Shown here in pieces: positions 4,880-26,410 of a stretch of 64,000 nucleotides of DNA; position 1 is the stretch's first letter; each line of letters opens with the position of its first letter. The DNA comes from a virus. A program made the position numbers and the translations under genes. The stretch is taken from IMG/VR virus record IMGVR_UViG_3300036770_006330. One strand, written 5' to 3'. The notes beneath the pieces are model-generated. The model did not search any database and was not told the DNA's origin. It saw only the letters and a program-made list of their open reading frames with translations.

Positions 4880-5097
4880 GCACTCTTGTACCTCGTTCGT
4901 CAAGTTCGCTCAGGTGACTTCGGGCACTTGTGCCCCAGACAGCGCAAGCCGAGTTCGTGCGTTCAGGCGACCACGCACAGCGTTCCCACCCAAACCGAGT
5001 TCGTCTGCCATCACCAGACCCGTTTCAGCCAGCGAAGACCAGATGCTGATGTCTTCCAACGGGGCTCTTGGGCGGCTGTCCCACACCATCTTCTTTT

Positions 5098-5112
5098 GAC
5101 GGTGGCGGATGA
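5098..5112 (+). repeat. polar 15-mer copy 1
   Basis: GACGGTGGCGGATGA preceded by TCTTCTTTT. Confidence 0.9.
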
Positions 5113-5311
5113 ACCCCGACGGGTCGCCTGTTTAGACAATGGGTCTGCAAAAAGCAAGTTGCTCGCACCAGCATAATGTCTGGACTGAGGAGAAGTTTGG
5201 ACTTAGTCCAACTCTGGACAGCATCCACGTTCCAACTGGGACTTGACCCCAGAAGCCCCGCCATCTGGAGTCGCACGGGGACTGAGTTGCCCTTCTGGGG
5301 TGTTTGGGGGC

Positions 5312-5350
5312 AAAGAAAAACCCCGCCGAGTGGGGGTATCTCGGCGGGGT
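5312..5350 (-). terminator. intrinsic terminator
   Basis: ACCCCGCCGAG...CTCGGCGGGGT with A-run on +. Confidence 0.7.
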
Positions 5351-5355
5351 AGTCC

Positions 5356-5547
5356 TTATTCGGGTTGTGTCGTCACTCCCGAGAGAGCCCACCACAAGCG
5401 GAACGCTTGCCCGTGAACCTCACGGAGAGTTTCGGTCACCTCTTGCTCAGGGCTCGCCTCAACGTAGTCCTGAATGATGTTGGCGAGTTGTCGTGCGACG
5501 CTCGCAACATCCAAGAGAGTGACTGACGACTGAGTTGGCTCAGTCAT
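5356..5547 (-). CDS. hypothetical protein (63 aa)
   Basis: MTEPTQSS...; GGAGG SD; promoter upstream. Confidence 0.7.
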   Translation of the reverse strand: MTEPTQSSVTLLDVASVARQLANIIQDYVEASPEQEVTETLREVHGQAFRLWWALSGVTTQPE

Positions 5548-5564
5548 TAGTACCTCCACCAAGC

Positions 5565-5619
5565 AGGATAGTGGGGTACAAGTGGGACAGCAAGCATTTC
5601 CCGTGTGTTTGCCGTCACA
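5565..5619 (-). promoter_or_regulatory. SigA-type promoter with upstream CRP-like box
   Basis: TTGCTG-N17-TATCCT; TGTGT-N6-TCACA at 5604-5619. Confidence 0.6.
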
Positions 5620-5658
5620 TACCAGCGCAAACGGTTGGGAGAGCCGTCGTCGAGCCAG

Positions 5659-5692
5659 CCGGCTTCGAGCAAACCGGCTTCGAGCAAACCGG
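5659..5692 (+). repeat. tandem repeat CCGGCTTCGAGCAAA x2 (+CCGG)
   Basis: read directly. Confidence 0.85.
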
Positions 5693-5735
5693 ATGGTCTT
5701 CTTGCGGGGCTTCCGATGTCCCATCATCTTCTTCT

Positions 5736-5750
5736 GACGGTGGCGGAAGA
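5736..5750 (+). repeat. polar 15-mer copy 2
   Basis: GACGGTGGCGGAAGA. Confidence 0.9.
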
Positions 5751-5774
5751 GCAGTTCGCCCGTTCGGGGGCAAC

Positions 5775-5819
5775 AAAAAAAGGGGGCAAGCGCACCTCAT
5801 TGGTACGCCTGCCCCCTTT
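5775..5819 (-). terminator. intrinsic terminator
   Basis: AGGGGGCA.GCGCACC...GGTACGC.TGCCCCCT with A-run on +. Confidence 0.7.
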
Positions 5820-5828
5820 CAGGGGGTA

Positions 5829-6170
5829 CTACGGATAGCGAAGTTCTGACTTTTTACGGCGAGTGAACGTGAGTGGGCTGTTTTCTAGTTCCTTTGTAAG
5901 TTGCCAGCGCATTTTTGGCAGACAACCACGCAGGTACTTTTGTAGTCGGGCTACGGCGTAGAGGCGCATAGGGAATAATCCGTATGCCCACTCGGGTAGC
6001 TCGTCTTTATCGTTATCAACGATGACCCAATACGGCTTCACTTTTCCGTACTCAATGCGGTTCACACGCCGTATTGAGTAGCGCACCTGATTTCGGTGCG
6101 AAGTGTCGCCACTTTCGGGCGCATCGTCGCATTGACCGAAGTCAAAACGGGGTACGCCTTCTGTTTCCAT
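5829..6170 (-). CDS. hypothetical protein (leaderless)
   Basis: METEGVPRF...; ATG 7 nt after -10. Confidence 0.7.
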   Translation of the reverse strand: METEGVPRFDFGQCDDAPESGDTSHRNQVRYSIRRVNRIEYGKVKPYWVIVDNDKDELPEWAYGLFPMRLYAVARLQKYLRGCLPKMRWQLTKELENSPLTFTRRKKSELRYP

Positions 6171-6177
6171 AGAGGTC

Positions 6178-6231
6178 ACTCTATCCCACTTATGCCCAAT
6201 GAGCAAGTTTTAGTTTGTGACCCACGACACG
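6178..6231 (-). promoter_or_regulatory. SigA-type promoter with CRP-like box
   Basis: TTGCTC-N17-TAGAGT; TGTGA-N6-ACACG from 6216. Confidence 0.6.
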
Positions 6232-6617
6232 TTTTCCTCGGTCACGACCCCAACCACCGAGAGTGACCGCCTAACCACGCCTGTTTGTAAGGGTTGCCTA
6301 ACTGTTAGGTGAGCCTTACGTTGATTTATCACTAAGCCAGCCAGACCACCAGCGATGTCGAGAACTCCTCGCCAGCTCTGGGCTTCGCCACGGGGCTTCA
6401 GAGGCGAACGCGTGAAGAACTCCCAGTCGCCGTCGGGGGGCGGGCGCAGCACGGGAACTTATCCAATAAACCGTTTGGTTGCGGGCACAACCATCTTGCT
6501 TCACCCAAAGAAGTTGCCAACATACCGAGTTGATGTCGGAAAGTCAATGTCCCAGATGGCGACGCACGTCCTTCTCGAGAAGACCTCAAGAGCCCCGCAA
6601 CAAACCGCCATCAAACC

Positions 6618-6632
6618 GACGGTGGCGGAAGA
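6618..6632 (+). repeat. polar 15-mer copy 3
   Basis: GACGGTGGCGGAAGA. Confidence 0.9.
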
Positions 6633-6637
6633 AGGAC

Positions 6638-6675
6638 AAAAAAAATCGGGCGCCCCCGTTGCTGGGAACGCCCGA
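6638..6675 (-). terminator. intrinsic terminator
   Basis: A8 followed by TCGGGCG...CGCCCGA hairpin. Confidence 0.65.
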
Positions 6676-6823
6676 CTTCTTTGCTTGATTTCAGAACAGC
6701 ACTAGTGCTACTAGAACTGCGACTGCAAGTGACTGAATCACGACAGGTGCTTCCTTTCTGCCGTTACGCGTTGTAGTGATAGGTGACGCGCGAGCGTACA
6801 CGGTCTTTTGGGAAATGTCAACT

Positions 6824-7060
6824 TTAGACGGACTTCTCCAACTCTTTCGCCAGAACGACGAGCGAATCGTCGTTGTTTAGGCGCGAATGGAACACAATGC
6901 GCTTGATGAGAAGGCGTACTAGCCACTTCAGTTGAGCGTTCTCTGCGAGCAAGTCGTCGCGCTCAGTGTCGCGCTTTGACTTCTCCTCGTAGAACTTCGC
7001 CCAGCCGACCCGGCGTGACGCCTCAAGCCCTTGTATGACTTGAGTAGTGGTGGTTTTCAT
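6824..7060 (-). CDS. hypothetical protein (78 aa)
   Basis: MKTTTTQVIQG...; AGGAG SD. Confidence 0.7.
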   Translation of the reverse strand: MKTTTTQVIQGLEASRRVGWAKFYEEKSKRDTERDDLLAENAQLKWLVRLLIKRIVFHSRLNNDDSLVVLAKELEKSV

Positions 7061-7262
7061 GGTATCTCCTGTAGGTTCGGTTTCCACCCTTAGTTGACGG
7101 ATAAGAGCACCGCTTGGTCAGTAAATGTCAAATGACATTGGACACATGGTGTTACAGCAGCGCCAGGTCGCCGTCGACAGCTGAGCTTGCGGCCCGGCCG
7201 GGCTCGAGGGACATCAAGCTCCCGGGACTTCGGTGCCGTCGGCAAGCGCTTCATCTTCTTTT

Positions 7263-7277
7263 GACGGTGGCGTATGA
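7263..7277 (+). repeat. polar 15-mer copy 4
   Basis: GACGGTGGCGTATGA. Confidence 0.9.
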
Positions 7278-7284
7278 CGGGCAC

Positions 7285-7328
7285 AAAGAAGAAGCCCACC
7301 CACCCCATAACGCAGGGCAGGTGGGCTT
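7285..7328 (-). terminator. intrinsic terminator
   Basis: AAGCCCACC...GGTGGGCTT. Confidence 0.6.
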
Positions 7329-7349
7329 GCTACTTGGGCTAAGCGGTGA

Positions 7350-7763
7350 TTAGCAGCCCATACGCTGTTCGTGATAGCGCTCGCTCGCCAGTTCAGACGC
7401 AGCGTGGCGGTACTCGGCAATGTAGTCCTGAACCTGTGCGGGTAGGGCTGACTCATTCAGGCGGTGTAACTTGCCCGAGCCATCGCAATACTCGCAGCGA
7501 GCGTCAAACGCACCTTGTGCGTAGTTCAGGCTGAACTCGTCACCGTGCGCTAGCAGTTCGTCAGTAGACATAGCGCCGAAGCGGTGAGAATGGAAGCCGT
7601 TACCACGACAGGTGTCGCAGATAACCCATTCCATCTCAAACTCAAACGGCAGCAGTTCGCCACGCTCAACGGCATCAACTAGTGACTCCAATAGGCGTGA
7701 CTCCGAGGTGTGTAATGCGTAGCGCTTAGCGCTAAGCAGTCCGTCATAGTCGATTTCTGGCAT
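7350..7763 (-). CDS. hypothetical protein with DnaJ-type CxxCxGxG zinc knuckles
   Basis: CDTCRGNG and CEYCDGSG. Confidence 0.75.
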   Translation of the reverse strand: MPEIDYDGLLSAKRYALHTSESRLLESLVDAVERGELLPFEFEMEWVICDTCRGNGFHSHRFGAMSTDELLAHGDEFSLNYAQGAFDARCEYCDGSGKLHRLNESALPAQVQDYIAEYRHAASELASERYHEQRMGC

Positions 7764-7798
7764 AGATGACCCCCTTGGGTCTGATAGTAGGTAGTTAG

Positions 7799-7853
7799 AT
7801 TTTAGGGGCACTAACGGCATAAGTCAAGAGCCGCAGCCGTGTTCGCCGACACA
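7799..7853 (-). promoter_or_regulatory. SigA-type promoter with CRP-like box
   Basis: TTGACT-N17-TAAAAT; CGTGT-N6-ACACA at 7838-7853. Confidence 0.7.
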
Positions 7854-7949
7854 CACCCAACGCCGCCGTAGGTCGTCGCCCGTCGGCTGTCCCCGCCAAC
7901 CCCCTTCGGCAGTCCCGCCGCCGACGACGCAGATGTCTCGTCTTCTTTT

Positions 7950-7964
7950 GACGGTGGCGGATGA
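7950..7964 (+). repeat. polar 15-mer copy 5
   Basis: GACGGTGGCGGATGA. Confidence 0.9.
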
Positions 7965-8051
7965 CCGATTACGGGCACTAAAAAACCACCCCCACAACCG
8001 AGATTTATCTCAGCGCAGGGGTGGCTTAGAAGTCAGGCTATCGGGGTTTTG

Positions 8052-8546
8052 CTACACCGCAACCTGTGTGAATGGGCAGACTGCCTGCTCTCCGAACACC
8101 TTCTCGTAGAGCCAGCGACCGTTTTGCCAGTCGGTTTCCCAGCCCCCATCTGAACCGATGTCTACGCACGAACCGTAGATGACCTTCGCACGGATGAGAA
8201 CGGCTGTTACGACCGTGTCATAGGGCTTCTGGTTCGTCTTACAGAAGTCAAAGATTTGGTGCTTCTTCTCACGGTCGCCTGCGTAGGCTTTCACCCACCA
8301 CTCGGGCTGTTCGGGTAGTGCTTCCCACGAAAAGGTTTCGTGGTCTTGGTCGTTTAGTTCTTGACCATTGAAGCGAAAGTAGCCTTCGGTGAACTCAGGC
8401 TCCCCTTTCCCATCCCAGCCAGCGATGACTATTCCTTCCAACTTGGCTTGCTCGATGATTTTCTTAGCGTCAAGCGCTAGTTTCCCGAACATCCAAGCCG
8501 ACCCGACATTACGTTTGTCTCGGGTGACGTAGTGCGTGTATCCCAT
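8052..8546 (-). CDS. conserved-looking phage hypothetical protein (MGYTHY...FCKT..KPYD)
   Basis: 164 aa ORF with promoter and SD. Confidence 0.8.
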   Translation of the reverse strand: MGYTHYVTRDKRNVGSAWMFGKLALDAKKIIEQAKLEGIVIAGWDGKGEPEFTEGYFRFNGQELNDQDHETFSWEALPEQPEWWVKAYAGDREKKHQIFDFCKTNQKPYDTVVTAVLIRAKVIYGSCVDIGSDGGWETDWQNGRWLYEKVFGEQAVCPFTQVAV

Positions 8547-8578
8547 TAGGTAGGTATTCCCCTTTCTTGTTGTAAGTC

Positions 8579-8607
8579 AGTCTAGGGGCACTTGGGGTAT
8601 CTGTCAA
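8579..8607 (-). promoter_or_regulatory. SigA-type promoter
   Basis: TTGACA-N17-TAGACT. Confidence 0.75.
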
Positions 8608-8608
8608 A

Positions 8609-8809
8609 CTATCGGATGCGATTTGCTGGGTGGCGTTGCTTGGTCGCAGCCAAAGCATCGCAGTTCAGATGCTCGTAGCCGACCCCCCGCAGGTGCTTCA
8701 CGGGAGTCCCGCCATCCATCTGGCAACCACAGTTCAGGCACGTGGCTTGCTTTGCCAGAACAACGACGACTCCGAGTTTGACTGGGTTATTGGTAATAGT
8801 TAGGTTCAT
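8609..8809 (-). CDS. small zinc-finger-like protein (leaderless)
   Basis: CLNC...HLNC; ATG 6 nt after -10. Confidence 0.65.
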   Translation of the reverse strand: MNLTITNNPVKLGVVVVLAKQATCLNCGCQMDGGTPVKHLRGVGYEHLNCDALAATKQRHPANRIR

Positions 8810-8815
8810 ACAAGC

Positions 8816-8844
8816 AACTTACCCAACACCCATAAAGAAGTCAA
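8816..8844 (-). promoter_or_regulatory. SigA-type promoter
   Basis: TTGACT-N17-TAAGTT. Confidence 0.7.
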
Positions 8845-8948
8845 GTATTTCATCGCTGGCGAAGTTCTTATCGCCGTCGATTTCTCCTACCGGCTTAGTG
8901 CTAATCATTTTTGCGCCGGGGCTTGCGGGTTTCCTGAGTTCTTCTTTT

Positions 8949-8963
8949 GACGGTGGCGGATGA
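8949..8963 (+). repeat. polar 15-mer copy 6
   Basis: GACGGTGGCGGATGA. Confidence 0.9.
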
Positions 8964-9026
8964 CGGGCGTACCCCAGACCACCTACACGGGCTTGACCTG
9001 ACCTACCAAATGGTCACGGGAAATGC

Positions 9027-9055
9027 TTGACTTTCATCCGTGTGGTTCGTAAGTT
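9027..9055 (+). promoter_or_regulatory. SigA-type promoter
   Basis: TTGACT-N17-TAAGTT. Confidence 0.7.
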
Positions 9056-9062
9056 GGAATGT

Positions 9063-9344
9063 ATGCGTACACCTACCTATTATCTTGTCCGTACCTATGT
9101 CCGTGTGATTTTCTGGACTGCTGTCGCCTTCGGGTTGATTTGGCTGGTCAGCACTTCTGTCGGTTCGTGGGATAAATACGAATGTGTAGAAACCAATGTG
9201 GTCGTTCAGCCCTACGACACAATGTGGGCTATCGCAGAGAAATACTGTGACGGCAACATTGAGGTCGCAGTAGCCGATTTGATTTCGGCGCACGGCTCTG
9301 CTACGGTTATCGTTGGGCAAACTATTGAGGTGCGTAATAAGTGA
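9063..9344 (+). CDS. membrane-anchored LysM-domain protein (leaderless)
   Basis: N-terminal TM then VVQPYDTMWAIAEKY...IVGQTIEV. Confidence 0.75.
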   Translation: MRTPTYYLVRTYVRVIFWTAVAFGLIWLVSTSVGSWDKYECVETNVVVQPYDTMWAIAEKYCDGNIEVAVADLISAHGSATVIVGQTIEVRNK

Positions 9345-9742
9345 CCGAACAAGATTTTGATAACAAGCGTTATGGAGTGGTAGAGAGTGTTCGCCCTTCT
9401 TCCGTAATAAAGTGCGACGGTTGCGCCAAAGATGTACCGTGCTTTTCGCAAACAAACCTGCCCGAACACGGCTTCGTGCTTACGCTTGCGTCAATGGACT
9501 ACTACGGTGGGTTCAGCGACTTTTTTGATGACGAGCCACCCAAGTTCCTGCTGTGCCACGACTGTTCGTTGGCACTCATAACTGCTCTGCCGTTGGTCGC
9601 AGAACGCTTACCCCGAGGACTACACCCGTGCGACTTAGATACGCCGTGCTGCGACTATGCGTGGAAATGGATTAGCGACGGACAATGGAAAGACAACAAC
9701 CTTCACTTTGCCAAAGACGGCAAATGGGTTCCTGCTTCGTAA
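9341..9742 (+). CDS. Cys-rich hypothetical protein
   Basis: CDGC, CHDC; GTGA-type overlap with the upstream gene. Confidence 0.65.
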   Translation: MTEQDFDNKRYGVVESVRPSSVIKCDGCAKDVPCFSQTNLPEHGFVLTLASMDYYGGFSDFFDDEPPKFLLCHDCSLALITALPLVAERLPRGLHPCDLDTPCCDYAWKWISDGQWKDNNLHFAKDGKWVPAS

Positions 9743-9797
9743 TGAACAGTATCGCTTTCTCTGTCGTGATTTTTTTGGTGCTGTTCGTTATCTTGCC

Positions 9798-10041: not shown

Positions 10042-10056
10042 AACGGTGGCGGATGA
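10042..10056 (+). repeat. polar 15-mer copy 7
   Basis: AACGGTGGCGGATGA. Confidence 0.9.
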
Positions 10057-10070: not shown

Positions 10071-10111
10071 AGAAAACGGGCAGGCGCACCATCTCGGCAC
10101 GCCTGCCCGTT
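10071..10111 (-). terminator. intrinsic terminator
   Basis: AACGGGCAGGCG...CGCCTGCCCGTT. Confidence 0.7.
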
Positions 10112-10771: not shown

Positions 10772-10786
10772 GACGGTGGCGTATGA
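10772..10786 (+). repeat. polar 15-mer copy 8
   Basis: GACGGTGGCGTATGA. Confidence 0.9.
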
Positions 10787-11597: not shown

Positions 11598-11612
11598 AAC
11601 GGTGGCGGATGA
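11598..11612 (+). repeat. polar 15-mer copy 9
   Basis: AACGGTGGCGGATGA. Confidence 0.9.
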
Positions 11613-12336: not shown

Positions 12337-12351
12337 GACGGTGGTGGATGA
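12337..12351 (+). repeat. polar 15-mer copy 10
   Basis: GACGGTGGTGGATGA. Confidence 0.9.
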
Positions 12352-12418: not shown

Positions 12419-12850
12419 TTAGAGGCTGACTGTTTCCCGCAGGTACTTGTGCTTCTTGACTAACTTCCAAGTTGTCTTGTCCCCAACTACCTGAGCCTCA
12501 TAGACGCAGAGTTTGTCGTCGGCTAGCAGGTAGAGGAACTGCGCCCAACCGAAGTTCTTGCTCTTGTCGGTAAAGAGGTGCGGTTTATCTTCCTTGTAGG
12601 CGATACCGTACCCATCCACGAGCGAGAAATCGTCGGCATTACCGTGCCACATCTCAGCGAGTTTGGTCTTGCTTGCGTAGATAGATGACCACGCATTTTT
12701 CATCAGGTTCTTGCGAGCCTGTTCCAGACCATCACGCCGTACGAGAAGCAGTAGGTCAGGTACTTTTGCGTCTGGGTATCCATCCCAATGGCAATAGCGA
12801 CCTCGCCAACCGCCCTTGTGAGGCACAGCGATAATGCTACGAGTTGCCAT
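12419..12850 (-). CDS. phage hypothetical protein (YCHWDGYP family)
   Basis: MATRSII...YCHWDGYP motif. Confidence 0.8.
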   Translation of the reverse strand: MATRSIIAVPHKGGWRGRYCHWDGYPDAKVPDLLLLVRRDGLEQARKNLMKNAWSSIYASKTKLAEMWHGNADDFSLVDGYGIAYKEDKPHLFTDKSKNFGWAQFLYLLADDKLCVYEAQVVGDKTTWKLVKKHKYLRETVSL

Positions 12851-13037
12851 TTAGCACCTCGTCTAGCAACTGATAGGTGTCTATGCCCTCAATGAGAGAC
12901 AGGTTAGACCCGCTATCCCATTTCACATTGAGAACACGGTCACCGAAAGCGTCGGTAAATGAACCGACCACCTCGCCCTCATCACCCGCCGTTAGACGGG
13001 TGTAAGGGTCGTAGGTGTGGACTAAGCGGATACGCAC
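12837..13037 (-). CDS. DUF4314-like protein
   Basis: RIRLVHT.DP...G..G.V...D..G....V.WD.GS.LSLI...D pattern. Confidence 0.75.
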   Translation of the reverse strand: MRIRLVHTYDPYTRLTAGDEGEVVGSFTDAFGDRVLNVKWDSGSNLSLIEGIDTYQLLDEVLNGNS

Positions 13038-13039
13038 GG

Positions 13040-13294
13040 CTATTCCCCGCCCTCATTATCCAAGATGAGGTTTGCGAAGAAACACTTGGAAGCGGTGTGT
13101 CCAATGGTGAGGGACATACCGCACACTCCGAGTGTGTCCAGCAAGTTCATAGCCGTCAGTTCGTCAAGGCTTTCCAACTCACGGAGTTTTTCCGTCAGTC
13201 GTTCAGCCATACGCATTTGGATGACCAGCGTTTCTTCTTCATCCTTATTGGCGAAGAAGTCCACCACATCCTGTGGGAACTGTGTGGTGTTCAC
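13040..13294 (-). CDS. hypothetical protein
   Basis: operon-coupled ORF. Confidence 0.65.
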   Translation of the reverse strand: MNTTQFPQDVVDFFANKDEEETLVIQMRMAERLTEKLRELESLDELTAMNLLDTLGVCGMSLTIGHTASKCFFANLILDNEGGE

Positions 13295-13524
13295 TTGATA
13301 CCGTCAAACAGACGGACAGGCTTGACCGACAGCGCAACGCACAGGCGAAGCAGGGTGTCCAGATTTGGCGAGAAGTGGTTGTTCTCAATGCGGTTCACCG
13401 TCTTGCGGTCAATGCCAGCAAGTTCGGCAAGTGCTTGTTGAGAGAGTTCTGCGTCAATGCGGAACTGACGCAAGCGGTCTGCGACCACTTTCTCCTTCTT
13501 GCTCTTGGTTGGTTTGGTTTTCAT
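13291..13524 (-). CDS. XRE/Cro-family helix-turn-helix regulator
   Basis: RLRQFR...LSQQALAELAGIDRKTVNRIEN...P.LDTLLRLC.AL. Confidence 0.9.
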   Translation of the reverse strand: MKTKPTKSKKEKVVADRLRQFRIDAELSQQALAELAGIDRKTVNRIENNHFSPNLDTLLRLCVALSVKPVRLFDGIK

Positions 13525-13560
13525 TGGTTGTTTTCTCCTTGTTTGGTTTGGGTATTACAT

Positions 13561-14136
13561 CTAACAGATTTGGAAACCGCCACAGGCTTTCAGGAAGTTG
13601 GCGAACTCACGGATGTTGGCAAGATTTATGGAGTAGTTGGCTTCATTGGGTTCTGTTTCACCCTTGCCATTACATCCATTACAAGTCTGAGAGATTTCGG
13701 TCTCGTCTTTCTTGATGGGCAACTTCTTGTATTTCGGAAGTTTCTGCCCGTCACCCACGATGTCTGCCATTATGTCGTAGTCGTATGGGTTGCGAGTTTC
13801 GCCCGTCTTGGTGTTTTTGTACCAAAGGCGCATACCTGTCGCCATACAATGCGAACACTTGCGCTTTGGCAGAGACTTGATGTAGTCGTTGCGCTCTTTG
13901 ATGTATTGCTTTGCCGTGCCGTCTTTGAGCGAAGCGAGCAGACGCTTCCCCAACTCCTCGCTATCCCAGCCATCCAAGCCGTCGCCGTCGTTTGAGTGGG
14001 CGTTCTTTACCTTGTCGCAGATTTCAGGTGCGACAGCCGAGCAGTAGTCCCACAAGGGATGCCACCACCAAATGTTGTTGCGGAAGTATTCGCCACGCTC
14101 GCTCGTCGGGTTTTGCCCGTACACATCCATTCCCAT
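13561..14136 (-). CDS. phage hypothetical protein with CxxCxGxG zinc finger
   Basis: YFRNNIWWWHPLW; CSHC / CNGCNGKG; promoter TTGACG-N17-TAACTT at 14169-14197. Confidence 0.8.
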   Translation of the reverse strand: MGMDVYGQNPTSERGEYFRNNIWWWHPLWDYCSAVAPEICDKVKNAHSNDGDGLDGWDSEELGKRLLASLKDGTAKQYIKERNDYIKSLPKRKCSHCMATGMRLWYKNTKTGETRNPYDYDIMADIVGDGQKLPKYKKLPIKKDETEISQTCNGCNGKGETEPNEANYSINLANIREFANFLKACGGFQIC

Positions 14137-14328: not shown

Positions 14329-14343
14329 GACGGTGGCGTATGA
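14329..14343 (+). repeat. polar 15-mer copy 11
   Basis: GACGGTGGCGTATGA. Confidence 0.9.
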
Positions 14344-15155: not shown

Positions 15156-15170
15156 GACGGTGGCGTATGA
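15156..15170 (+). repeat. polar 15-mer copy 12
   Basis: GACGGTGGCGTATGA. Confidence 0.9.
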
Positions 15171-16732: not shown

Positions 16733-16747
16733 GACGGTGGCGTATGA
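16733..16747 (+). repeat. polar 15-mer copy 13
   Basis: GACGGTGGCGTATGA. Confidence 0.9.
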
Positions 16748-20405: not shown

Positions 20406-20420
20406 GACGGTGGCGTATGA
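20406..20420 (+). repeat. polar 15-mer copy 14
   Basis: GACGGTGGCGTATGA. Confidence 0.9.
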
Positions 20421-20421
20421 C

Positions 20422-20670
20422 CTATCGCTTGCTCATTAGGTTCTTGTCGTAGAACCTAACAAACAGAAAGATGTATCCGAGAAGCAAGCAGTAGCGATAC
20501 GAGATAATGTCGTCTATGACTTGCTCGTATCTCAGTATGAGAAGGGCTAACCACAAGCCAAAGCCATAGACGAAGCCCGACGCTAGAAAGCCCAACACGC
20601 CAGCCAAGACAAGGCTGGTTGTTGTTGGTGGCTTTTCTTTCGGTGTTGTCTTTGGAAACTGATTAGGCAT
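20422..20670 (-). CDS. small two-TM membrane protein
   Basis: two hydrophobic segments. Confidence 0.65.
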   Translation of the reverse strand: MPNQFPKTTPKEKPPTTTSLVLAGVLGFLASGFVYGFGLWLALLILRYEQVIDDIISYRYCLLLGYIFLFVRFYDKNLMSKR

Positions 20671-21052
20671 TGGTCATCTGTGGCTTGCGAACACGACGCA
20701 AGATTTGATGAACACGCTGGCGAGACAGTCCGTACTCGTCGGCAATACTTTGGAGTGAGCGACCTGCTTCTCTCGCGTTTAGCATTGCTTCATCTCGCTG
20801 TGCGTCGCCCATAGGTCCCGGCTTACACGGCCCCCAAGACCAACCGGAGAACTTCTCCAACTCGATTTGGCGTTCGCTCGACAGACTTCCAGCACGGTAT
20901 TTCACTCGGAGATAACTCACCCACGAACCAAGCGAAACAACAGTTCCATCAACGGCGACTTTCGCTGCCGCAGGAACTCTTGCGTGTCCGTGCTGTGAAG
21001 TGAACAACTCCAAAGCCTTTATGTTTCTTGCCCATTTTTCTGAGGTTCTCAT
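20663..21052 (-). CDS. helicase-associated (HA)-domain plus sigma70-region-4-like HTH protein
   Basis: W...L..F...HGH.RVP...LGSWV...R...L..ER...L...GWSW followed by G.SLQSIADEYGLSRQRVHQI. Confidence 0.8.
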   Translation of the reverse strand: MRTSEKWARNIKALELFTSQHGHARVPAAAKVAVDGTVVSLGSWVSYLRVKYRAGSLSSERQIELEKFSGWSWGPCKPGPMGDAQRDEAMLNAREAGRSLQSIADEYGLSRQRVHQILRRVRKPQMTNA

Positions 21053-21148: not shown

Positions 21149-21163
21149 GACGGTGGCGGATGA
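21149..21163 (+). repeat. polar 15-mer copy 15
   Basis: GACGGTGGCGGATGA. Confidence 0.9.
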
Positions 21164-21513: not shown

Positions 21514-21547
21514 GTACCCCACAGTACCTACTACCTAAGGAGTGCCC

Positions 21548-21888: not shown

Positions 21889-22151
21889 TGAACAAAGAAC
21901 AACGCGATAACGACTGGTCGCAGATATGCGATGAAATCTTCAAATCATTGGCTGAAGCAGAGAAGACTCTCGCAGCCATGAAGAAGGCTCTCACCACAAA
22001 CGCAGACCAGAAAACCATCTTCGATGTTGCCAAAACATTCAATGCGATTTCCCGTGATATCGAGTTCCTCATGGATGATGCGGAACTTTGGGTGAAACTC
22101 AACGAAATCGAGGACTTCATCTACAAGCCACGCTTGGAGGTAATTAAATGA
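21888..22151 (+). CDS. hypothetical protein
   Basis: GGAGGAG SD, coupled. Confidence 0.7.
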   Translation: MNKEQRDNDWSQICDEIFKSLAEAEKTLAAMKKALTTNADQKTIFDVAKTFNAISRDIEFLMDDAELWVKLNEIEDFIYKPRLEVIK

Positions 22152-22348
22152 ACGGAATGCCCTACAAGGTCTTTCGCGCGGACCACTGGATAAGCGTGGA
22201 GTTTCTCGGCTCTGCTGGGAAAATAACTTTCCGCTGCGAGGACGACGACGAAGCAATTAAACAGGAACTTTTCTGGCAGGACGTCATTGCGATGGCAGAG
22301 AACTGGGATTCACACCTAGAGGAGGATGACGACGATGTGGTTTCATGA
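22148..22348 (+). CDS. hypothetical protein
   Basis: GGAGG SD. Confidence 0.65.
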   Translation: MNGMPYKVFRADHWISVEFLGSAGKITFRCEDDDEAIKQELFWQDVIAMAENWDSHLEEDDDDVVS

Positions 22349-22547
22349 CCTGCACCGGTATTACATGGTGCTGCGCGCGCGCTGGTACTTCTATCGAGAG
22401 GGGTACCGCAATGGCGGGCTGCCATGTTGGCACTGTGTCTTCGTGCCAGACGAAATCGATGGGAAGTTCTACCCAATCTGGTTGACTTGTACCAATCCAG
22501 AATTCGGAGGAGTTCAGGACGATGGCTGCAACTGGGGAAATGTGTGA
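22335..22547 (+). CDS. hypothetical protein
   Basis: coupled ORF; start uncertain. Confidence 0.5.
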   Translation: MWFHDLHRYYMVLRARWYFYREGYRNGGLPCWHCVFVPDEIDGKFYPIWLTCTNPEFGGVQDDGCNWGNV

Positions 22548-22909
22548 ACTGTTTCGAAAGTCAGACCTGCGTTGACTGCGGCATCGACACGCTCGAAGCC
22601 AAGGAGTACTACATGGTTACTGACAACTGCTGGAAGCGTGCTGGGATGCGACCGTATGACGGGATGCTCTGTATTGGCTGCCTAGAGTCTCGCCTTGGAA
22701 AGAAGTTGACTCCCCGCAACTTCAGTGAGTGCCCGCTGAACTGGCGCAACACCCTGGTCCCCGACTACGCGTCGGACCGCCTGGTCAGCCGTCTGTACCA
22801 TGGCGGCAAGAACTCGAAGTGGGCTCGAGGAGCACTGGCTGCCATCGAAGAACTCAGCCGCGGGGAGGCACGCCTATTGGAATCCCTCACTCTTGTGGAG
22901 TTTCGCTAA
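22544..22909 (+). CDS. zinc-binding hypothetical protein
   Basis: CVDC...YMV.D..W...LCIGCLE.RLG..L...F; GTG start overlapping upstream stop. Confidence 0.7.
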   Translation: MNCFESQTCVDCGIDTLEAKEYYMVTDNCWKRAGMRPYDGMLCIGCLESRLGKKLTPRNFSECPLNWRNTLVPDYASDRLVSRLYHGGKNSKWARGALAAIEELSRGEARLLESLTLVEFR

Positions 22910-22912
22910 CAC

Positions 22913-22927
22913 AACGGTGGTGGATGA
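22913..22927 (+). repeat. polar 15-mer copy 16
   Basis: AACGGTGGTGGATGA, 2 nt upstream of TTGACA-N17-TAAAGT (22930-22958). Confidence 0.85.
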
Positions 22928-22997
22928 TGTTGACAAAGATGAACATAACCATTAAAGTTATTAAACAAGTAGCTCCGGCTGCAGAAGGGAAACAATC

Positions 22998-23420
22998 ATG
23001 ACCGTTACGACACCAGTCGAATCGGACGCAAAGGTTCAAGTCCGCGTTGAAGTAACCGAGACTCGGCTTAGCACCGAGTACTACGACATCGACGCCAAGG
23101 ACCTGCCCCCAAACTGGCACTCGATGAACCAGGACGAACAACACGTCTGGATTCGCGCGCGCGGCAATGTTGTGAAGAACAACGTTGAAGAGATTCAGGA
23201 ACGCACTGATGGGGTGTTCCTCTCCTGGGAGAAATCGCACCCGGAATGGACCGTTACGTTTACGTATACACAATCCGAGATTGTCTCTGCAGCCAATCGC
23301 GAGGCTGCAATTAATAAAGCACGCATGGCAATTGCCCGTACGTACGATGACCCAGACGGTGCCATCCAGGTCCTTGGCGACGCTGATGTTGACGTCCTCG
23401 ACGGACGCTGGGGTCTCTGA
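22998..23420 (+). CDS. hypothetical protein
   Basis: GAAGGGA SD. Confidence 0.75.
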   Translation: MTVTTPVESDAKVQVRVEVTETRLSTEYYDIDAKDLPPNWHSMNQDEQHVWIRARGNVVKNNVEEIQERTDGVFLSWEKSHPEWTVTFTYTQSEIVSAANREAAINKARMAIARTYDDPDGAIQVLGDADVDVLDGRWGL

Positions 23421-23668
23421 TGGAGCCGATAAAGATTGGCGCTGACGTCGTCTACATCTGGGAAGACAACCCGTCCCAGGAGCTCCATGGATATATATCC
23501 TTTGCTGACTGGGAAGATGATGCGGACGAAGACGCGTATGGCGTAAACGACCTCGACATTTTCTTTTTCTCGAGTGAAGCTGAGCTCCCGGAGCTAATGA
23601 AGCCGCATAATGGCTCTGACTTCCGGGTCCTATCCTTCGAGTATCGCATGGCTGACGGTGGTGGATGA
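23420..23668 (+). CDS. acidic hypothetical protein
   Basis: coupled ORF; last codons are 15-mer copy 17. Confidence 0.7.
   Translation: MEPIKIGADVVYIWEDNPSQELHGYISFADWEDDADEDAYGVNDLDIFFFSSEAELPELMKPHNGSDFRVLSFEYRMADGGG
23654..23668 (+). repeat. polar 15-mer copy 17
   Basis: GACGGTGGTGGATGA. Confidence 0.8.
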
Positions 23669-24009
23669 TGGGAATACTTGATGTGAAAGAGACCGAAGAC
23701 CTGGTCAATCGACTGTTCCTTTGGGATGCCATCGAAAAACGCGGCACGCCAATCACCAATGACATTTATGTCGTCGATATCGACATGTTGTCCCATGAGC
23801 AACGACTGGTTATCACCGGTGGTGACCCTGAGGAGATTCAAAAGCTTGTCGACGAGTTCGGCAGCACGCTAGAATCACAGTTGACACTGTCGATACGTAT
23901 ATTTGCCAAGCTGGTAAACACCATCTATGACAAGGCGTCGCCGGCGCAGCAAGGTCAGATTATGGACCTCATCCGCAACACACTTAAAGACATCGAGGAG
24001 GAAGAATGA
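23665..24009 (+). CDS. hypothetical protein
   Basis: coupled ORF. Confidence 0.7.
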   Translation: MMGILDVKETEDLVNRLFLWDAIEKRGTPITNDIYVVDIDMLSHEQRLVITGGDPEEIQKLVDEFGSTLESQLTLSIRIFAKLVNTIYDKASPAQQGQIMDLIRNTLKDIEEEE

Positions 24010-24164
24010 AACACGTAGTAGTACTGGGAATTGCCTTCGAAGTGGAGGCGGACGACCGCGAACAGGCTGAAGCCAAGGCTTTTGCTGCGCTGCAGGAGCA
24101 CACCCGCGCGACCGTAACGGACGGGTTCTGGGTAGAAGACACCCGTGAGCTCCAAGGGTCCTAA
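24006..24164 (+). CDS. 52-aa hypothetical protein (not in ORF track)
   Basis: MKHVVVLGIAFEVEADD...; GGAGG SD, ATGA overlap. Confidence 0.65.
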   Translation: MKHVVVLGIAFEVEADDREQAEAKAFAALQEHTRATVTDGFWVEDTRELQGS

Positions 24165-24391
24165 TGCTGTCTCGCGAGCTAAATTTAACTGAAACCCTTC
24201 GCCTGGCGCGCCTAGTAGAGGGTAAACCAATCAGCCGCAGCCGGCTGGGGTCTCCATGCCGCTTTGTCCGCCGCATCGACATACTGGTCCACCTCGTGGT
24301 GCCCGAGCTGATTGAAGACGCGTTTCCTCGAGTCGCGCGATATCTCCGACGGACGTCTCCTCGATGGGGCCGCAGCTGGCGCTCATGGTAA
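24164..24391 (+). CDS. hypothetical protein
   Basis: TAATG coupling. Confidence 0.5.
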   Translation: MLSRELNLTETLRLARLVEGKPISRSRLGSPCRFVRRIDILVHLVVPELIEDAFPRVARYLRRTSPRWGRSWRSW

Positions 24392-24486
24392 GTAGCTACT
24401 AATGGCAAAGTATCTAGCCACGGCAATCATCATCTGGTTCTTCCTATTTTCGTGACAGCTATTTGTTGTTGTACTATTTTCTTCCT

Positions 24487-24651
24487 ATGAAGAACGTCAA
24501 CAAGACAAGGCACTGGCGCTGCGGTACATGCGGCAATCAACTCACGACATTTGTAAACCTGAGTTGTCCACCAGAGTGCGGCAACCCGAGTGTGCACAGC
24601 ACGCGTCGTGTTGTTATGGAGCAAGTTAAAAAATTAGTAAACGCTTCGTAG
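24487..24651 (+). CDS. small zinc-ribbon protein
   Basis: WRCGTCG...CPPEC. Confidence 0.55.
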   Translation: MKNVNKTRHWRCGTCGNQLTTFVNLSCPPECGNPSVHSTRRVVMEQVKKLVNAS

Positions 24652-24666
24652 TATCGCTAACCCTTT

Positions 24667-24681
24667 GACGGTGGCGGATGA
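24667..24681 (+). repeat. polar 15-mer copy 18
   Basis: GACGGTGGCGGATGA. Confidence 0.9.
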
Positions 24682-24700
24682 GGTGTGATAGAAATGAAAC

Positions 24701-25192
24701 ATGCACCTCACACAAAATGCTCCGACCACTTGGAATCAAGCTGCTGAAGTAAGCGCATCACAAATCTTTTCGAGTTTGACTTCGGCCCACGTCAATCTCG
24801 GAACTTTGCGCACGACGTTCGAACGCCTTTCTACCTCGTATTTCTCGGACTTTTCTGACTGCTCGAAAGAACGAGCATCAATTCTGTGGGAATCAATTGG
24901 TACATGCGCTCTCGAGTGGGGCGTAATGCATTCGATAATCATTTCGAAGGACCATCTTGTCTCGACTCTTGTTCGAAAGCAACGGGACTACGGACACAAC
25001 AACATCGCAAAATATGGCCGGCAGGGACTCATCATTCGAGTACACGACAAAATCGCCCGCCTGGAGAACCTGGTTGCGAAGAACTCAACGGCTGCAAATG
25101 AACCAATCGAAGACACCATTCTCGACATCGCCGGCTATTCGGCCATCGGCATGATGTGGGAAGCCGGGACTTTCTTACTCCCGCTCGAGTAA
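24701..25192 (+). CDS. DUF1599 / nucleotide-modification-associated domain 1 (Nmad1) protein
   Basis: RKQRDYG...R.HDK.ARL.NL....E.I.DT.LDIAGY. Confidence 0.8.
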   Translation: MHLTQNAPTTWNQAAEVSASQIFSSLTSAHVNLGTLRTTFERLSTSYFSDFSDCSKERASILWESIGTCALEWGVMHSIIISKDHLVSTLVRKQRDYGHNNIAKYGRQGLIIRVHDKIARLENLVAKNSTAANEPIEDTILDIAGYSAIGMMWEAGTFLLPLE

Positions 25193-25359
25193 AAGGTGCG
25201 GTGGGGGAGCTCGCCGGCAAGCCACCTACCAACTTCCGCGAACTACAACCCCACCGCTACTGACGAAGGGAGAAGGGGGAACCTTCGCCAGCGCTTTATA
25301 GAATAGCTGTTTACTATTCGCTGCGGCGGAACCACCCGGGGCTTTCATTGCCCTAGTAC

Positions 25360-25374
25360 GACGGTGGTGGATGA
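25360..25374 (+). repeat. polar 15-mer copy 19
   Basis: GACGGTGGTGGATGA preceded by CCCGGGGCTTT. Confidence 0.88.
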
Positions 25375-25758
25375 ACCGGATGCGCAACCGGCCGAGGACC
25401 CGTCACGAGACAGACGGGTTGCGAAAAAAGAATGCGCACGCGACCTACATGCGCCAACAACGAGAACGCCCACGCGCTGCGCGAGTGCGGGTATTTACTA
25501 CAAACTCGTTCCCTTCGGCAATATGGAGCTATCGCTCCGTAATTGCCGAGGGTTAAACAACTTTCTTGGTAGAACAAATTGGAAGGACAACCAGATGATT
25601 GACATGTTGTACTGAATCCCGTGGACTGGGGAACACCATGTCACCCCACACGCATGTTGTAACTCGTACTTCTACATACTGGGAATAAGAAAAAACTACC
25701 GATTTTTTTCGACCCTGTCAAGCACGTCAAATGCGATATTTCCTAACAAAATAGGGGG

Positions 25759-25787
25759 TTGACAAAAAAATTTTTGGGCCCTATGCT
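25759..25787 (+). promoter_or_regulatory. SigA-type promoter
   Basis: TTGACA-N17-TATGCT. Confidence 0.75.
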
Positions 25788-25821
25788 GTCAGGACACCAA
25801 GTAGCTACTAGGAGGAACATC

Positions 25822-25986
25822 ATGAACATCGGAGTAATCACCAGTGCCCCATCGGTCATCTGCATGGAGTGCGCAGCCGACGACAAGGTCGACTGGGCAA
25901 CTTCGGATGGCTATCCGGACGGATTCACATGCGACGACTGCGGCAGCGTGGTTGACTCGCGCGGAGAGGTAACCAGTGGCCTTTAA
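25822..25986 (+). CDS. small CxxC...CxxC protein
   Basis: AGGAGG SD; CMEC, CDDC. Confidence 0.65.
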   Translation: MNIGVITSAPSVICMECAADDKVDWATSDGYPDGFTCDDCGSVVDSRGEVTSGL

Positions 25987-26410
25987 GCGCCTCGAGGACA
26001 AGGAGATAGTCCGCAAGGCCCTCCTGGTGCCCGACGCGGAGGTCCAGCTCGTCTGGCGTGCCTGGGTTAACGCCCACGGGTCCTCCGGCCGCGGGAAAGC
26101 TCCCAAGCTCACCGAAGACAGGTACGACCTCATCCGGGCCGCAATAATCAAATATGGTCTTCAACAATGCATCAAGGCCTGTTACGGGATTCTCTACTCC
26201 GACTGGCATATGGGCAACAATCCAGGAACCAAGGTTTATAACTCCCTCGAGCTCATCCTCAGGGACGGATGGCGAGTGAACCGGTTCGTAAAGCTCTACG
26301 AAGCCAACAAGGCTGAATTCCAGGGAGTTGTTCTTACCGTCGAGGAGCCTTTGCAAATCGGGGAAGACCTCGGTAGTATCGCTAATACATCAACGGTGGC
26401 GGAAGAGTAG
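25976..26410 (+). CDS. putative replication-initiator-like protein (C-terminal helical domain type)
   Basis: W.....KLT..R...I......G...C..A...I....W..G.N......LELILR; adjacent to loader-like gene. Confidence 0.5.
   Translation: MAFKRLEDKEIVRKALLVPDAEVQLVWRAWVNAHGSSGRGKAPKLTEDRYDLIRAAIIKYGLQQCIKACYGILYSDWHMGNNPGTKVYNSLELILRDGWRVNRFVKLYEANKAEFQGVVLTVEEPLQIGEDLGSIANTSTVAEE
26392..26406 (+). repeat. polar 15-mer copy 20 (last)
   Basis: AACGGTGGCGGAAGA. Confidence 0.8.

What the first reader, a model, noticed from the sequence alone, without database searches (positions are those of the whole stretch)
5089..26406. Twenty strictly co-oriented copies of an asymmetric 15-mer (RACGGTGGYGKAWGA), independent of gene direction
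Seen: copies start at 5098, 5736, 6618, 7263, 7950, 8949, 10042, 10772, 11598, 12337, 14329, 15156, 16733, 20406, 21149, 22913, 23654, 24667, 25360 and 26392. Most are 0.6-1.7 kb apart (up to 3.7 kb) and 18 of 20 are intergenic. All are on the + strand although genes are mostly - strand left of 16.7 kb and + strand right of it. I found no reverse copy and no full copy elsewhere in the window. Most copies extend upstream as CGGGGCTTC...TCTTCTTTT. Known: mycobacteriophage L5-type stoperators are asymmetric repeats but orient with transcription, whereas Chi/KOPS-type signals and T5-type programmed nicks are polarised relative to the DNA molecule. Inference: this is a genome-polar signal, for example a protein loading site during ejection, a nick site, a recombination site or a translocase cue, rather than an ordinary operator.
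Basis: partly seen in the sequence, partly recalled or inferred. Interest (0 to 1): 0.9.

Follow-up and report, generated by a model that had tools for sequence, protein, structure and literature searches.

The report
One-way boundary motif between phage cassettes
A 15-base DNA word, always pointing the same way, marks the borders between small swappable gene units in one 20-kb region of a family of large uncultured phages; related phages have gained, moved and even flipped the genes between these marks while the marks stayed fixed.

Summary
All 20 copies are on the + strand (0 expected by chance). In 31 related IMG/VR phage sequences the relaxed core NACGGTGGNNNAWGA occurs 239 times forward and 0 times reverse.

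The motif is not genome-wide. In complete relatives of 160 and 170 kb it is confined to one stretch of about 15-19 kb of small genes.

Its direction is independent of gene direction. All four flanking-gene arrangements occur, and the same operon lies in either orientation between unchanged motif copies in different genomes.

Most copies belong to a module of about 50 bp: CGGGGCT, a 23-30 nt spacer ending in a T-run, then the 15-mer. Homology between genomes stops at the edges of the 15-mer, and one cassette sits between different copies in the closest relative.

Best reading: a protein-recognised, one-way boundary and exchange platform for accessory cassettes. It works like T4 PeSLs or integron junctions but meets the definition of neither.

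It is not a general sigma-70 promoter. Relatives lack recognisable recombinases, a phage RNA polymerase and a full sigma factor.

Rivals not excluded: a polar stoperator-like block, an iteron of a DnaD-like protein, a nick site.

The run-finding tool (look-up of sequencing runs) was closed, so strand-specific expression could not be tested.

Earlier notes from this scan describe comparable boundary repeats in unrelated genomes.

The parts
5098..5112 (+). 15-mer copy (M), left-arm type; G-box CGGGGCT at 5060-5066
5736..5750 (+). M copy, left-arm type; G-box at 5705-5711. With M5098 it bounds the cassette that sits elsewhere in relative L058
6618..6632 (+). M copy without a forward G-box or T-run
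7263..7277 (+). M copy; G-box variant CGGGACT at 7223-7229
7950..7964 (+). M copy with T-run, no exact G-box
8949..8963 (+). M copy; G-box at 8917-8923
10042..10056 (+). M copy; G-box at 10009-10015, which here lies in the spacer of a - strand leaderless promoter (TTGCGG-N16-GATACT-N8-ATG)
10772..10786 (+). M copy; G-box at 10736-10742
11598..11612 (+). M copy; G-box at 11565-11571
12337..12351 (+). M copy; G-box at 12304-12310; left border of the XRE operon cassette
14329..14343 (+). M copy; G-box at 14297-14303; right border of the XRE operon cassette
15156..15170 (+). M copy; G-box at 15124-15130 inside a 10-bp-stem hairpin
16733..16747 (+). M copy in the divergent gap between the arms; G-box at 16713-16719
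20406..20420 (+). M copy, right-arm type (GTAGTGCTAAC upstream)
21149..21163 (+). M copy about 97 nt upstream of the - strand HA/sigma-r4 gene; G-box at 21136-21142
22913..22927 (+). M copy, right-arm type; a TTGACA-17-TAAAGT promoter-like site starts 2 nt after it
23654..23668 (+). M copy inside the stop/start overlap of two + genes
24667..24681 (+). M copy, right-arm type, 19 nt before the DUF1599 gene; the 42 nt on its upstream side are 82-86% conserved in relatives
25360..25374 (+). M copy upstream of the DnaD-like gene; G-box at 25337-25343
26392..26406 (+). M copy overlapping the 3' end of the DnaD-like gene, 17 nt before the next + gene
5778..5820 (-). intrinsic terminator of the - cassette to the right of M5736
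6639..6682 (-). intrinsic terminator next to M6618
7292..7328 (-). intrinsic terminator next to M7263
10075..10111 (-). intrinsic terminator next to M10042
11630..11666 (-). intrinsic terminator next to M11598
12370..12405 (-). intrinsic terminator next to M12337
25976..26410 (+). 144-aa gene with weak replication-initiation/DnaD-like signals, present in every lineage that has M; candidate M-binding protein
20663..21052 (-). 129-aa protein with an HA domain and a sigma-70 region 4 / Mor-like HTH; second candidate binder
12419..14136 (-). XRE-containing operon cassette (XRE at 13291-13524) that is inverted between unchanged M copies in L017/L111/L101/L071
2562..4496 (-). SNF2-family helicase gene just outside the left end of the array, conserved in relatives

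Best explanation
The 15-mer is the invariant core of a one-directional boundary module of about 50 bp. In most copies the module reads CGGGGCT, then 23-30 nt ending in a T-run, then nACGGTGGnnnAWGA. The module punctuates an accessory, probably early, region of about 20 kb made of small self-contained gene cassettes. It occurs in a family of uncultured phages of about 130-170 kb whose portal and helicase are closest to those of actinobacteriophages.

Shown: the module belongs to the platform and not to the cassettes. Related genomes have gained, lost, relocated and inverted the DNA between two modules, while the modules kept their place and direction. Sequence homology between genomes starts and stops at the edges of the 15-mer.

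Inferred: the 15-mer is a double-stranded DNA site read by a sequence-specific, asymmetrically binding phage protein. It is also the short shared sequence at which co-infecting relatives exchange cassettes. Only co-oriented copies give collinear, viable recombinants. This would both explain and maintain the strict polarity regardless of gene direction.

The best candidate readers are the DnaD-like 144-aa protein (25976-26410) and the HA/sigma-region-4 HTH protein (20663-21052).
For: Polarity:
- 20 forward and 0 reverse copies in the window.
- 239 forward and 0 reverse in 31 non-redundant sources, counting the window and related IMG/VR sequences.
- With up to 3 mismatches, 266 forward against 7 reverse.

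Confinement:
- G001 (160 kb, complete) has 16 copies, all within 121.8-140.7 kb.
- G002 (170 kb) has 7 copies, all within 16-31 kb.

Independence from genes:
- Flanking configurations are -M- 57, +M+ 47, -M+ 33 and +M- 23.
- Homologues of five window cassette genes lie on either strand relative to M(+) in different genomes.
- In L017 the XRE operon is inverted, while both flanking modules, G-box included, stay forward.

Junction role:
- Cassette 5113-5735 lies between other M copies in L058, and its site there is X-M-Y.
- Among copy pairs from different sources, 66 share both flanks, 27 share only the left and 35 share only the right.
- In the one-flank pairs, identity falls to background right at the 15-mer's edges.

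Protein-like specificity:
- 12 positions are invariant.
- Three alternating positions vary, and orthologous copies retain their variant.
- The motif is identical in relatives whose homologous genes are only about 65-70% identical in nucleotides and whose cassettes are often unalignable.

Module structure: the G-box-to-M distance is 23-30 nt in 80 of 115 copies.

Candidate readers:
- The 25976 homologue is present in all lineages that have M.
- In distant relatives that carry only 2-3 copies in the stretch fetched, the copies lie upstream of it.
Against: - No binding protein is demonstrated.
- No recombinase of a known family was found in complete relatives: Tyr, Ser, Y1, RecA, RecT and Erf were searched.
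- A 15-24 bp identity is short for homologous exchange.
- Recombination between directly repeated M copies cannot by itself invert a cassette, so a second process is needed.
- Selection for exchange alone would not explain the position-specific conservation, so a direct molecular function is implied and remains unidentified.
- Adjacent copies are not more alike than distant ones (18.6% against 13.9% identical), so there is no sign of duplication at insertion.
- Gene calls come from an in-session codon model. Some +M- cases may hide small unannotated genes.
Confidence: 0.45

Rival explanations
1. Stoperator-like polar roadblock or operator. A monomeric asymmetric DNA-binding protein sits on M and stops RNA polymerase moving in one direction only (rightward). 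In the right arm this would silence the + strand genes that follow M. In the left arm it would keep rightward antisense transcription out of the - strand cassettes. Leftward transcription is stopped there by the strong intrinsic terminators next to each copy. Exchange at M would then be a by-product.
For: - M is an asymmetric site in short intergenic gaps, as in Cluster A phages, where reversing a site abolishes repression (PMC9283540).
- Right-arm copies lie 0-20 nt before + gene starts or inside operons.
- In -M- copies a - strand terminator lies within about 20-30 nt.
- About 30 of 170 copies have a strong hairpin followed by a T-run just upstream on the + strand, which could act as a + strand terminator.
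- HTH proteins are encoded in the array.
Against: - Orientation does not follow the direction of the neighbouring genes, so it fails the defining stoperator rule for more than half of the copies.
- No integrase was found in the complete relatives, so a global immunity repressor is not expected.
- There is no evidence for rightward transcription in the left arm.
Confidence: 0.2
2. Iteron-like binding site of the phage's DnaD-like replication protein. It would serve as an origin, secondary origins, or initiator titration and handcuffing sites. Ancestrally there would be two tandem copies upstream of that gene, later multiplied through the accessory region. Origin-linked breaks would make the sites recombination hot spots.
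For: - GC-richer relatives L003 and L113 show just two exact tandem copies, 42-49 nt apart, in the stretch fetched. They lie about 290-430 nt upstream of the homologue of gene 25976-26410.
- An M copy lies about 270-300 nt upstream of that gene in G002, G003, L006 and L022.
- The gene has a weak PHROG match to 'replication initiation protein', E 8e-6.
- Its best fold matches are the SPP1 G39P helicase loader and DnaD-domain proteins.
- Direct, co-oriented repeats are the rule for iterons (own knowledge).
Against: - The fold matches are weak: Z 3.4-4.5, in the range the tool warns is common for helical proteins.
- Copies in the window are 0.6-3.7 kb apart. They are not tandem or helically phased.
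- 16-20 origins within 20 kb has no precedent.
- No binding has been shown.
Confidence: 0.13
3. Rightward promoter element or 5' RNA element. M would direct or mark + strand transcripts: sense in the right arm and antisense to the cassettes in the left arm. This could shut off early genes or pull the DNA into the cell.
For: - T-GACGG gives a -35-like TTGACG.
- In a subset, mostly the G002/G003 type and copy 24667, a TAnnnT follows at 17-18 nt.
- In G002 most genes near M are + strand.
- Sigma region 4-like HTH modules are present in the giant virion protein and in an array gene.
Against: - Only about 11 of 170 copies have TAnnnT at the right distance.
- The distance from M to the next promoter or start codon varies from overlap to several hundred nt.
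- No T7-like RNA polymerase and no sigma region 2 was found in the relatives.
- Some copies lie inside coding sequence.
Confidence: 0.1
4. Strand-specific nick or modification site, as in T5 or phiKMV-type phages, or the target of an unrecognised site-specific nuclease. Its breaks would seed exchange and end-joining of cassettes in either orientation.
For: - All copies lie on one strand.
- Recombination junctions fall exactly at the site.
- Cassettes are found inverted between fixed sites. Re-joining after breakage would explain this, whereas crossover between directly repeated copies cannot.
- A conserved partner element sits at a fixed distance on the same strand, often in a hairpin.
Against: - Searches for tyrosine and serine recombinases and a Y1 transposase found nothing. 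HNH, GIY-YIG and HUH nuclease families were not searched.
- Known phage nick sites are spread over the genome and do not avoid genes (own knowledge).
- Nothing in sequence alone can show a nick.
Confidence: 0.1

Closest known systems
PeSLs (promoter-early stem-loops) of T4-type phages (PMC2839356; PMC4122927)
   Same: Both are short conserved intergenic modules in hyperplastic regions of small orphan genes. [quoted passage not shown] Here too a terminator hairpin adjoins many copies.
   Different: A PeSL is a terminator plus an early promoter, so it is co-oriented with its genes. Here the conserved core is neither a terminator nor a general promoter. It keeps its direction when the adjacent operon is inverted. 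The terminators belong to the cassettes and not to the module.
Stoperators of Cluster A mycobacteriophages (L5 gp71 type; PMC9283540)
   Same: Both are asymmetric 13-15 bp sites present in many copies, mostly in short intergenic gaps of an actinophage-like genome. Both are compatible with a monomeric multi-domain reader.
   Different: Stoperator orientation follows the direction of transcription and the sites are spread over both arms of the whole genome. Here orientation ignores gene direction and the sites are confined to about 20 kb. No integrase was found in relatives, so there is no sign of lysogeny.
Integron cassette arrays (attC sites)
   Same: Both have co-oriented sites separating mobile gene cassettes, with gain, loss and reordering of cassettes at the sites.
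   Different: No IntI-type recombinase was found in complete relatives. There is no attC-type imperfect palindrome or GTTRRRY core. An attC travels with its cassette, whereas here the module stays and the cassette can flip.
Plasmid and phage iterons
   Same: Both are direct, co-oriented repeats. An M copy is linked to a small gene with weak replication-initiation/DnaD-like signals, and distant relatives have two tandem copies.
   Different: In the window the copies are 0.6-3.7 kb apart, one per cassette. They do not form a phased tandem cluster next to an AT-rich unwinding element.
Asymmetric intergenic repeats of Microbacterium phages (Cluster EC 18-mer) and the SAS/ESAS of Cluster K (PMC7302621)
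   Same: All are conserved asymmetric motifs repeated about a dozen times in short intergenic regions of actinobacteriophages, with unknown function.
   Different: Those motifs are all oriented alike and lie 21-30 bp, or a few bp, upstream of start codons, which ties them to the genes. M has no fixed relation to starts or to gene direction.

Membership tests
L5-type stoperators | Asymmetric repeated site of about 13 bp in intergenic gaps | tested here: met
L5-type stoperators | Orientation correlates with the direction of transcription (PMC9283540) | tested here: not met
   Configurations are -M- 57, +M+ 47, -M+ 33 and +M- 23. The same operon occurs in both orientations relative to M.
L5-type stoperators | Bound by the immunity repressor of a temperate phage | not testable with these tools
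   Binding cannot be tested. No integrase Pfam hit was found in G001-G003.
PeSL mobile regulatory cassettes | Marks the borders of indels and replacements between related genomes in a hyperplastic region | tested here: met
PeSL mobile regulatory cassettes | The conserved unit is a terminator stem-loop plus an early sigma-70 promoter, co-oriented with the genes | tested here: not met
   TAnnnT lies at promoter distance in only about 11 of 170 copies. The terminators sit beside M but vary in sequence and invert with the cassette. Orientation is independent of the genes.
Integron (attC/IntI) | Tyrosine recombinase IntI encoded with the array | tested here: not met
   PF00589 gave no hit in G001 or G002 (complete) or in G003, while the controls rang. 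The window's own full genome could not be searched.
Integron (attC/IntI) | attC: an imperfect palindrome with R''/R' core sites, carried by each cassette | tested here: not met
   M is not palindromic. The module stays in place when the cassette is inverted.
Chi / KOPS-type genome-polar words | Over-represented along the whole replicon, including inside genes, with polarity relative to ends or replichores | tested here: not met
   All 16 copies of G001 lie within 19 kb of 160 kb, and the 7 copies of G002 within 15 kb of 170 kb. Only 4 of 160 copies lie inside called genes.
Iterons of a replication initiator | Direct repeats adjacent to the initiator gene, bound by it | tested here: inconclusive
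   There is conserved linkage to the DnaD-like gene, with tandem pairs in L003 and L113. The family assignment of the protein is weak and binding is untested.
Sigma-70/sigmaA promoters | -35 and -10 hexamers at 16-18 nt spacing, at a fixed distance from the motif | tested here: not met
T5 / phiKMV-type programmed nicks | Single-strand interruption at the consensus in virion DNA | not testable with these tools

The most novel reading that the evidence does not exclude
The G-box/15-mer module is the repeat of a dedicated gene-cassette acquisition platform in a lytic phage. A still unrecognised phage enzyme would cut or nick at the one-way site, and DNA segments carrying complete genes would be captured, exchanged and re-joined in either orientation between fixed repeats. 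This would be an integron- or CRISPR-array-like architecture for whole genes, with none of the known enzymes.
Probability: 0.15. Interest if true: 0.9.

Novelty: new variant of a known kind. Interest (0 to 1): 0.66.

Why it matters
Hyperplastic regions full of orphan early genes are where phages keep their host-takeover and counter-defence repertoire. How these regions turn over is known in detail only for T4-type PeSLs.

Here a much shorter and far more strictly conserved site does the punctuating. Three properties, none of which I found described in the literature searched here, stand out:
- It is absolutely one-directional.
- It is independent of transcription.
- It remains in place while the genes between copies are swapped or flipped.

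This separates the 'platform' from the 'cargo'. It also gives a concrete and testable handle on modular evolution in a widespread group of uncultured freshwater-type phages: a 15-bp site, a 7-bp partner and two candidate reader proteins. If a dedicated enzyme is involved, this would be a new kind of gene-capture system and a potential tool.

Tried and rejected
- Nucleotide search against isolated phages found nothing. The nearest isolates are actinophages at only about 31-44% amino-acid identity.
- Rfam at gathering thresholds found only 7 tRNAs, so no known RNA family covers the module.
- Single-sequence folds around 13 copies gave no common structure for the 15-mer.
- G:T against A:C mismatches in the G-box hairpins were too few (4 against 1) to assign a strand.
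- The sigma-70 promoter idea was rejected as a general explanation.
- Reading the ATG inside the motif as a start codon was rejected. The AAGA variants lack it, and the frames that do start there are mostly short ORFs (under 50 aa at 22913 and 24667); only at 23654 does it coincide with a called gene start.
- The G-box as an element of the - strand promoters was rejected. It stays forward next to M when the operon is inverted, and 95 of 115 copies have no -10 after it.
- Target-site-duplication origin: adjacent copies are barely more alike than distant ones.
- The HA/sigma-r4 protein is a weaker candidate as the specific reader, because homologues at 45-46% identity sit in phages without M within 10 kb.
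- A scan of 185,579 bacterial genomes for G-box plus M gave 73 single hits. Many were in high-GC taxa and some were probably on mis-binned phage contigs. Only two loci held two copies each, so this gave no host clue.
- GC skew of G001 follows transcription and does not reveal replication direction.
- Foldseek found no significant match for the 25976 protein model.
- No whole genome is held for the window.

Full report
**1. Observation**

The pattern RACGGTGGYGKAWGA matches at exactly the 20 stated positions, all on the + strand. Dinucleotide-preserving shuffles give none. Allowing two mismatches adds only one chance-level hit outside the region.

It shows - strand genes from 1724 to 16702 and mainly + strand genes from 16783 to 27405. 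The exceptions in the right arm are the - strand genes at 20422-21052. About 18 of 20 copies are intergenic. Copies 23654 and 26392 overlap gene ends.

**2. What the window is**

There is no nucleotide match among 50,697 isolated phage records. The window encodes:
- an SNF2 helicase, an AAA_5 (MoxR/CobS-like) ATPase followed by a 534-aa protein of unknown family, thymidylate synthase and an SSB;
- an HslV-like peptidase and a metallophosphoesterase;
- tail fibres and seven tRNAs.

The SNF2 helicase of the window and the portal protein of relative G001 are closest to actinobacteriophage proteins, at only about 31-44% identity.

IMG/VR holds a family related to the window at about 65-80% nucleotide identity over most shared stretches. 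One complete 160-kb member, G001, is syntenic with the window. The cassette genes themselves have no Pfam family.

**3. The motif in the family**

Every related sequence carries the same word in strictly co-oriented arrays.
- In 31 non-redundant sources, counting the window itself, the relaxed core NACGGTGGNNNAWGA occurs 239 times forward and never reverse.
- With up to three mismatches the count is 266 forward against 7 reverse.
- Positions 2-8, 10, 12, 14 and 15 are invariant. Positions 9, 11 and 13 vary, and orthologous copies keep their variant.

The motif is not genome-wide.
- G001 has 16 copies, all between 121.8 and 140.7 kb.
- G002 (170 kb) has 7 copies, between 16 and 31 kb.
- G003 (129 kb) has 7 copies, between 96 and 116 kb.

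Spacing peaks sharply at 600-900 nt, which is one small gene per interval.

**4. Anatomy**

*Left-arm copies.* On the + strand these read: CGGGGCT (the 'G-box'), then a spacer, then a T-run (TCTTCTTTT), then the 15-mer, then about 20 nt, then a strong hairpin. That hairpin, read on the - strand, is the intrinsic terminator of the gene to the right. The gap from motif to that gene's stop codon is tight, with a median of 76 nt.

The G-box lies 23-30 nt from the 15-mer in 80 of 115 copies that have one. In about 30 of 170 copies it sits at the 3' side of the loop of a hairpin with an 8-17 bp stem. Shuffled flanks give stems of at most 7 bp. Most copies lack such a stem.

*Right-arm copies.* These carry GTATCGCTAA 4-8 nt upstream and lie 0-20 nt, or 70-90 nt, before + strand gene starts.

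**5. Polarity is independent of genes**

Among 160 family copies with called neighbours, the configurations are -M- 57, +M+ 47, -M+ 33 and +M- 23.

A second test does not depend on my gene caller. I ran tblastn with the window's cassette proteins against relatives that had been oriented so that M is forward. The same genes appear on either strand. The XRE operon (12419-14136) is on the - strand in the window, G001, G005 and L058, and on the + strand in L017, L111, L101 and L071. Gene 8052-8546 is on the + strand in G002, L054 and L032.

In L017 the inverted operon is still flanked by two forward modules, each with its forward G-box. So the G-box and the 15-mer form a platform that stays fixed, and the genes, with their own promoters and terminators, are cargo.

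**6. The motif is the mosaic junction**

In the closest relative, L058, the flanks of window copies 5098 and 5736 are joined at a single copy. The intervening cassette, 5113-5735, lies between two other copies. The right-hand homology starts at the first base after the 15-mer.

Across 18,945 pairs of copies from different sources:
- 66 share both flanks;
- 27 share only the left flank;
- 35 share only the right flank.

In the one-flank classes, identity anchored on the motif falls to background at the 15-mer's edges. Exchange of unrelated DNA at this site is therefore about as frequent as its conservation.

**7. What it is not**

- *A general sigma-70 promoter.* TAnnnT at 17-18 nt from the TTGACG-like start occurs in about 11 of 170 copies. 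The distance to real promoters varies.
- *A feature served by known dedicated enzymes.* Complete relatives gave no hits for T7-like RNA polymerase, sigma region 2, tyrosine or serine recombinase, Y1 transposase, RecA, RecT or Erf. Positive controls rang for each of these searches except the T7-like polymerase, where no control genome carries the family.
- *A known RNA.* Rfam finds no family and there is no common fold.
- *A host feature.* It does not occur as arrays in 185,579 bacterial genomes.

**8. Candidate readers**

*The 25976-26410 protein (144 aa).* It is found in every lineage with M. In GC-richer relatives (L003, L113, L022) only two or three copies were seen in the stretch fetched, two of them exact tandem repeats 42-49 nt apart in L003 and L113. 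They lie about 270-430 nt upstream of the homologue of this gene. The protein has a weak PHROG match to a replication initiation protein. Its model (pLDDT 82) is weakly most similar to the SPP1 G39P helicase loader and to DnaD-domain proteins, with Z 3.4-4.5. That is a lead and not an assignment.

*The HA plus sigma-region-4 / Mor-like HTH protein (20663-21052).* It is conserved inside the array in G001 and G002. However, homologues at 45-46% identity occur in phages without the motif nearby.

*The giant head-module protein of G001 (3915 aa).* It carries several sigma-region-4 HTH modules.

**9. Interpretation**

Shown: a strictly one-way, highly conserved site confined to the accessory region. 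It is independent of gene direction and coincides with the points where lineages have exchanged, moved and inverted cassettes.

Inferred: it is a protein-read DNA site, and its polarity is maintained because only co-oriented copies allow collinear exchange between relatives.

In function it resembles T4 PeSLs (PMC4122927) and integron junctions, but it fails the defining features of both. It also fails the orientation rule of stoperators (PMC9283540).

Four alternatives remain open: a stoperator-like polar block of rightward transcription, an iteron of the DnaD-like protein, a rightward promoter or RNA element, and a nick site.

Earlier notes of this scan describe comparable boundary repeats around shuffled cassettes in unrelated genomes. 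I treat these as leads and not as support.

Noticed in passing
L134:6675-18422 (G001 86675-98422); the window's own homologue lies upstream of the window: The 3915-aa head-module protein of relative G001 combines several sigma-70 region 4 HTH modules with Zeta-toxin, NUDIX and DnaJ domains. If it is packaged and ejected, it would deliver DNA-binding and effector domains into the host.
   Followed up: partly
window 9992, 11481, 16783; relatives: Many cassette genes appear to be leaderless. A TAnnnT-type -10 ends 6-8 nt before the ATG, for example TAGTAT-N6-ATG at 11481 and CATAAT-N7-ATG at 16783. This would fit an actinobacterial host.
   Followed up: partly
window 5778-5820, 10075-10111, 11630-11666 and relatives: The - strand terminators next to the motif share stem sequence (GGCGTACC...GGTGCGCC). 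The terminators themselves therefore form a related family.
   Followed up: no
window 5700-5730, 7190-7215, 21095-21110 and many relatives: The word GGGACATC / GATGTCCC recurs around the G-box. It often forms the hairpin stems and often contains the ATG of a - strand ORF (ATGTCCC...).
   Followed up: no
L003 (reverse strand 3029-3092), L113:131-187: GC-richer relatives carry just two exact tandem copies of a 21-mer (GGGGACGACGGTGGCGGATGA), 42-49 nt apart. A hairpin follows whose loop holds an SD-like AAAGGAG.
   Followed up: partly
window 16783-16947: A 54-aa, very basic protein directly downstream of copy 16733 is among the best conserved genes of the array (61-75% identity in 9 loci) and belongs to no known family.
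   Followed up: no
window 365-1492, 24701-25192: A PAPS-reductase-like protein lies just left of the array, and a DUF1599 'nucleotide modification associated' protein lies inside it. This hints at DNA modification.
   Followed up: no
window 32321-32396: tRNA-Arg(TCT) overlaps the 3' end of ORF 31535-32365 and abuts the thymidylate synthase gene. Five further tRNAs follow at 33073-33737.
   Followed up: no
window 47856-60647 against G001 5591-17162: The right part of the window matches the start of the G001 record. The two records are therefore cut at different points of a circularly permuted or arbitrarily opened genome.
   Followed up: no
L175 (Oxalobacteraceae MAG contig RGFZ01000057.1): A 14-kb contig binned with a betaproteobacterial MAG carries two co-oriented copies 674 nt apart. 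It is probably a mis-binned phage fragment and not a host clue.
   Followed up: no
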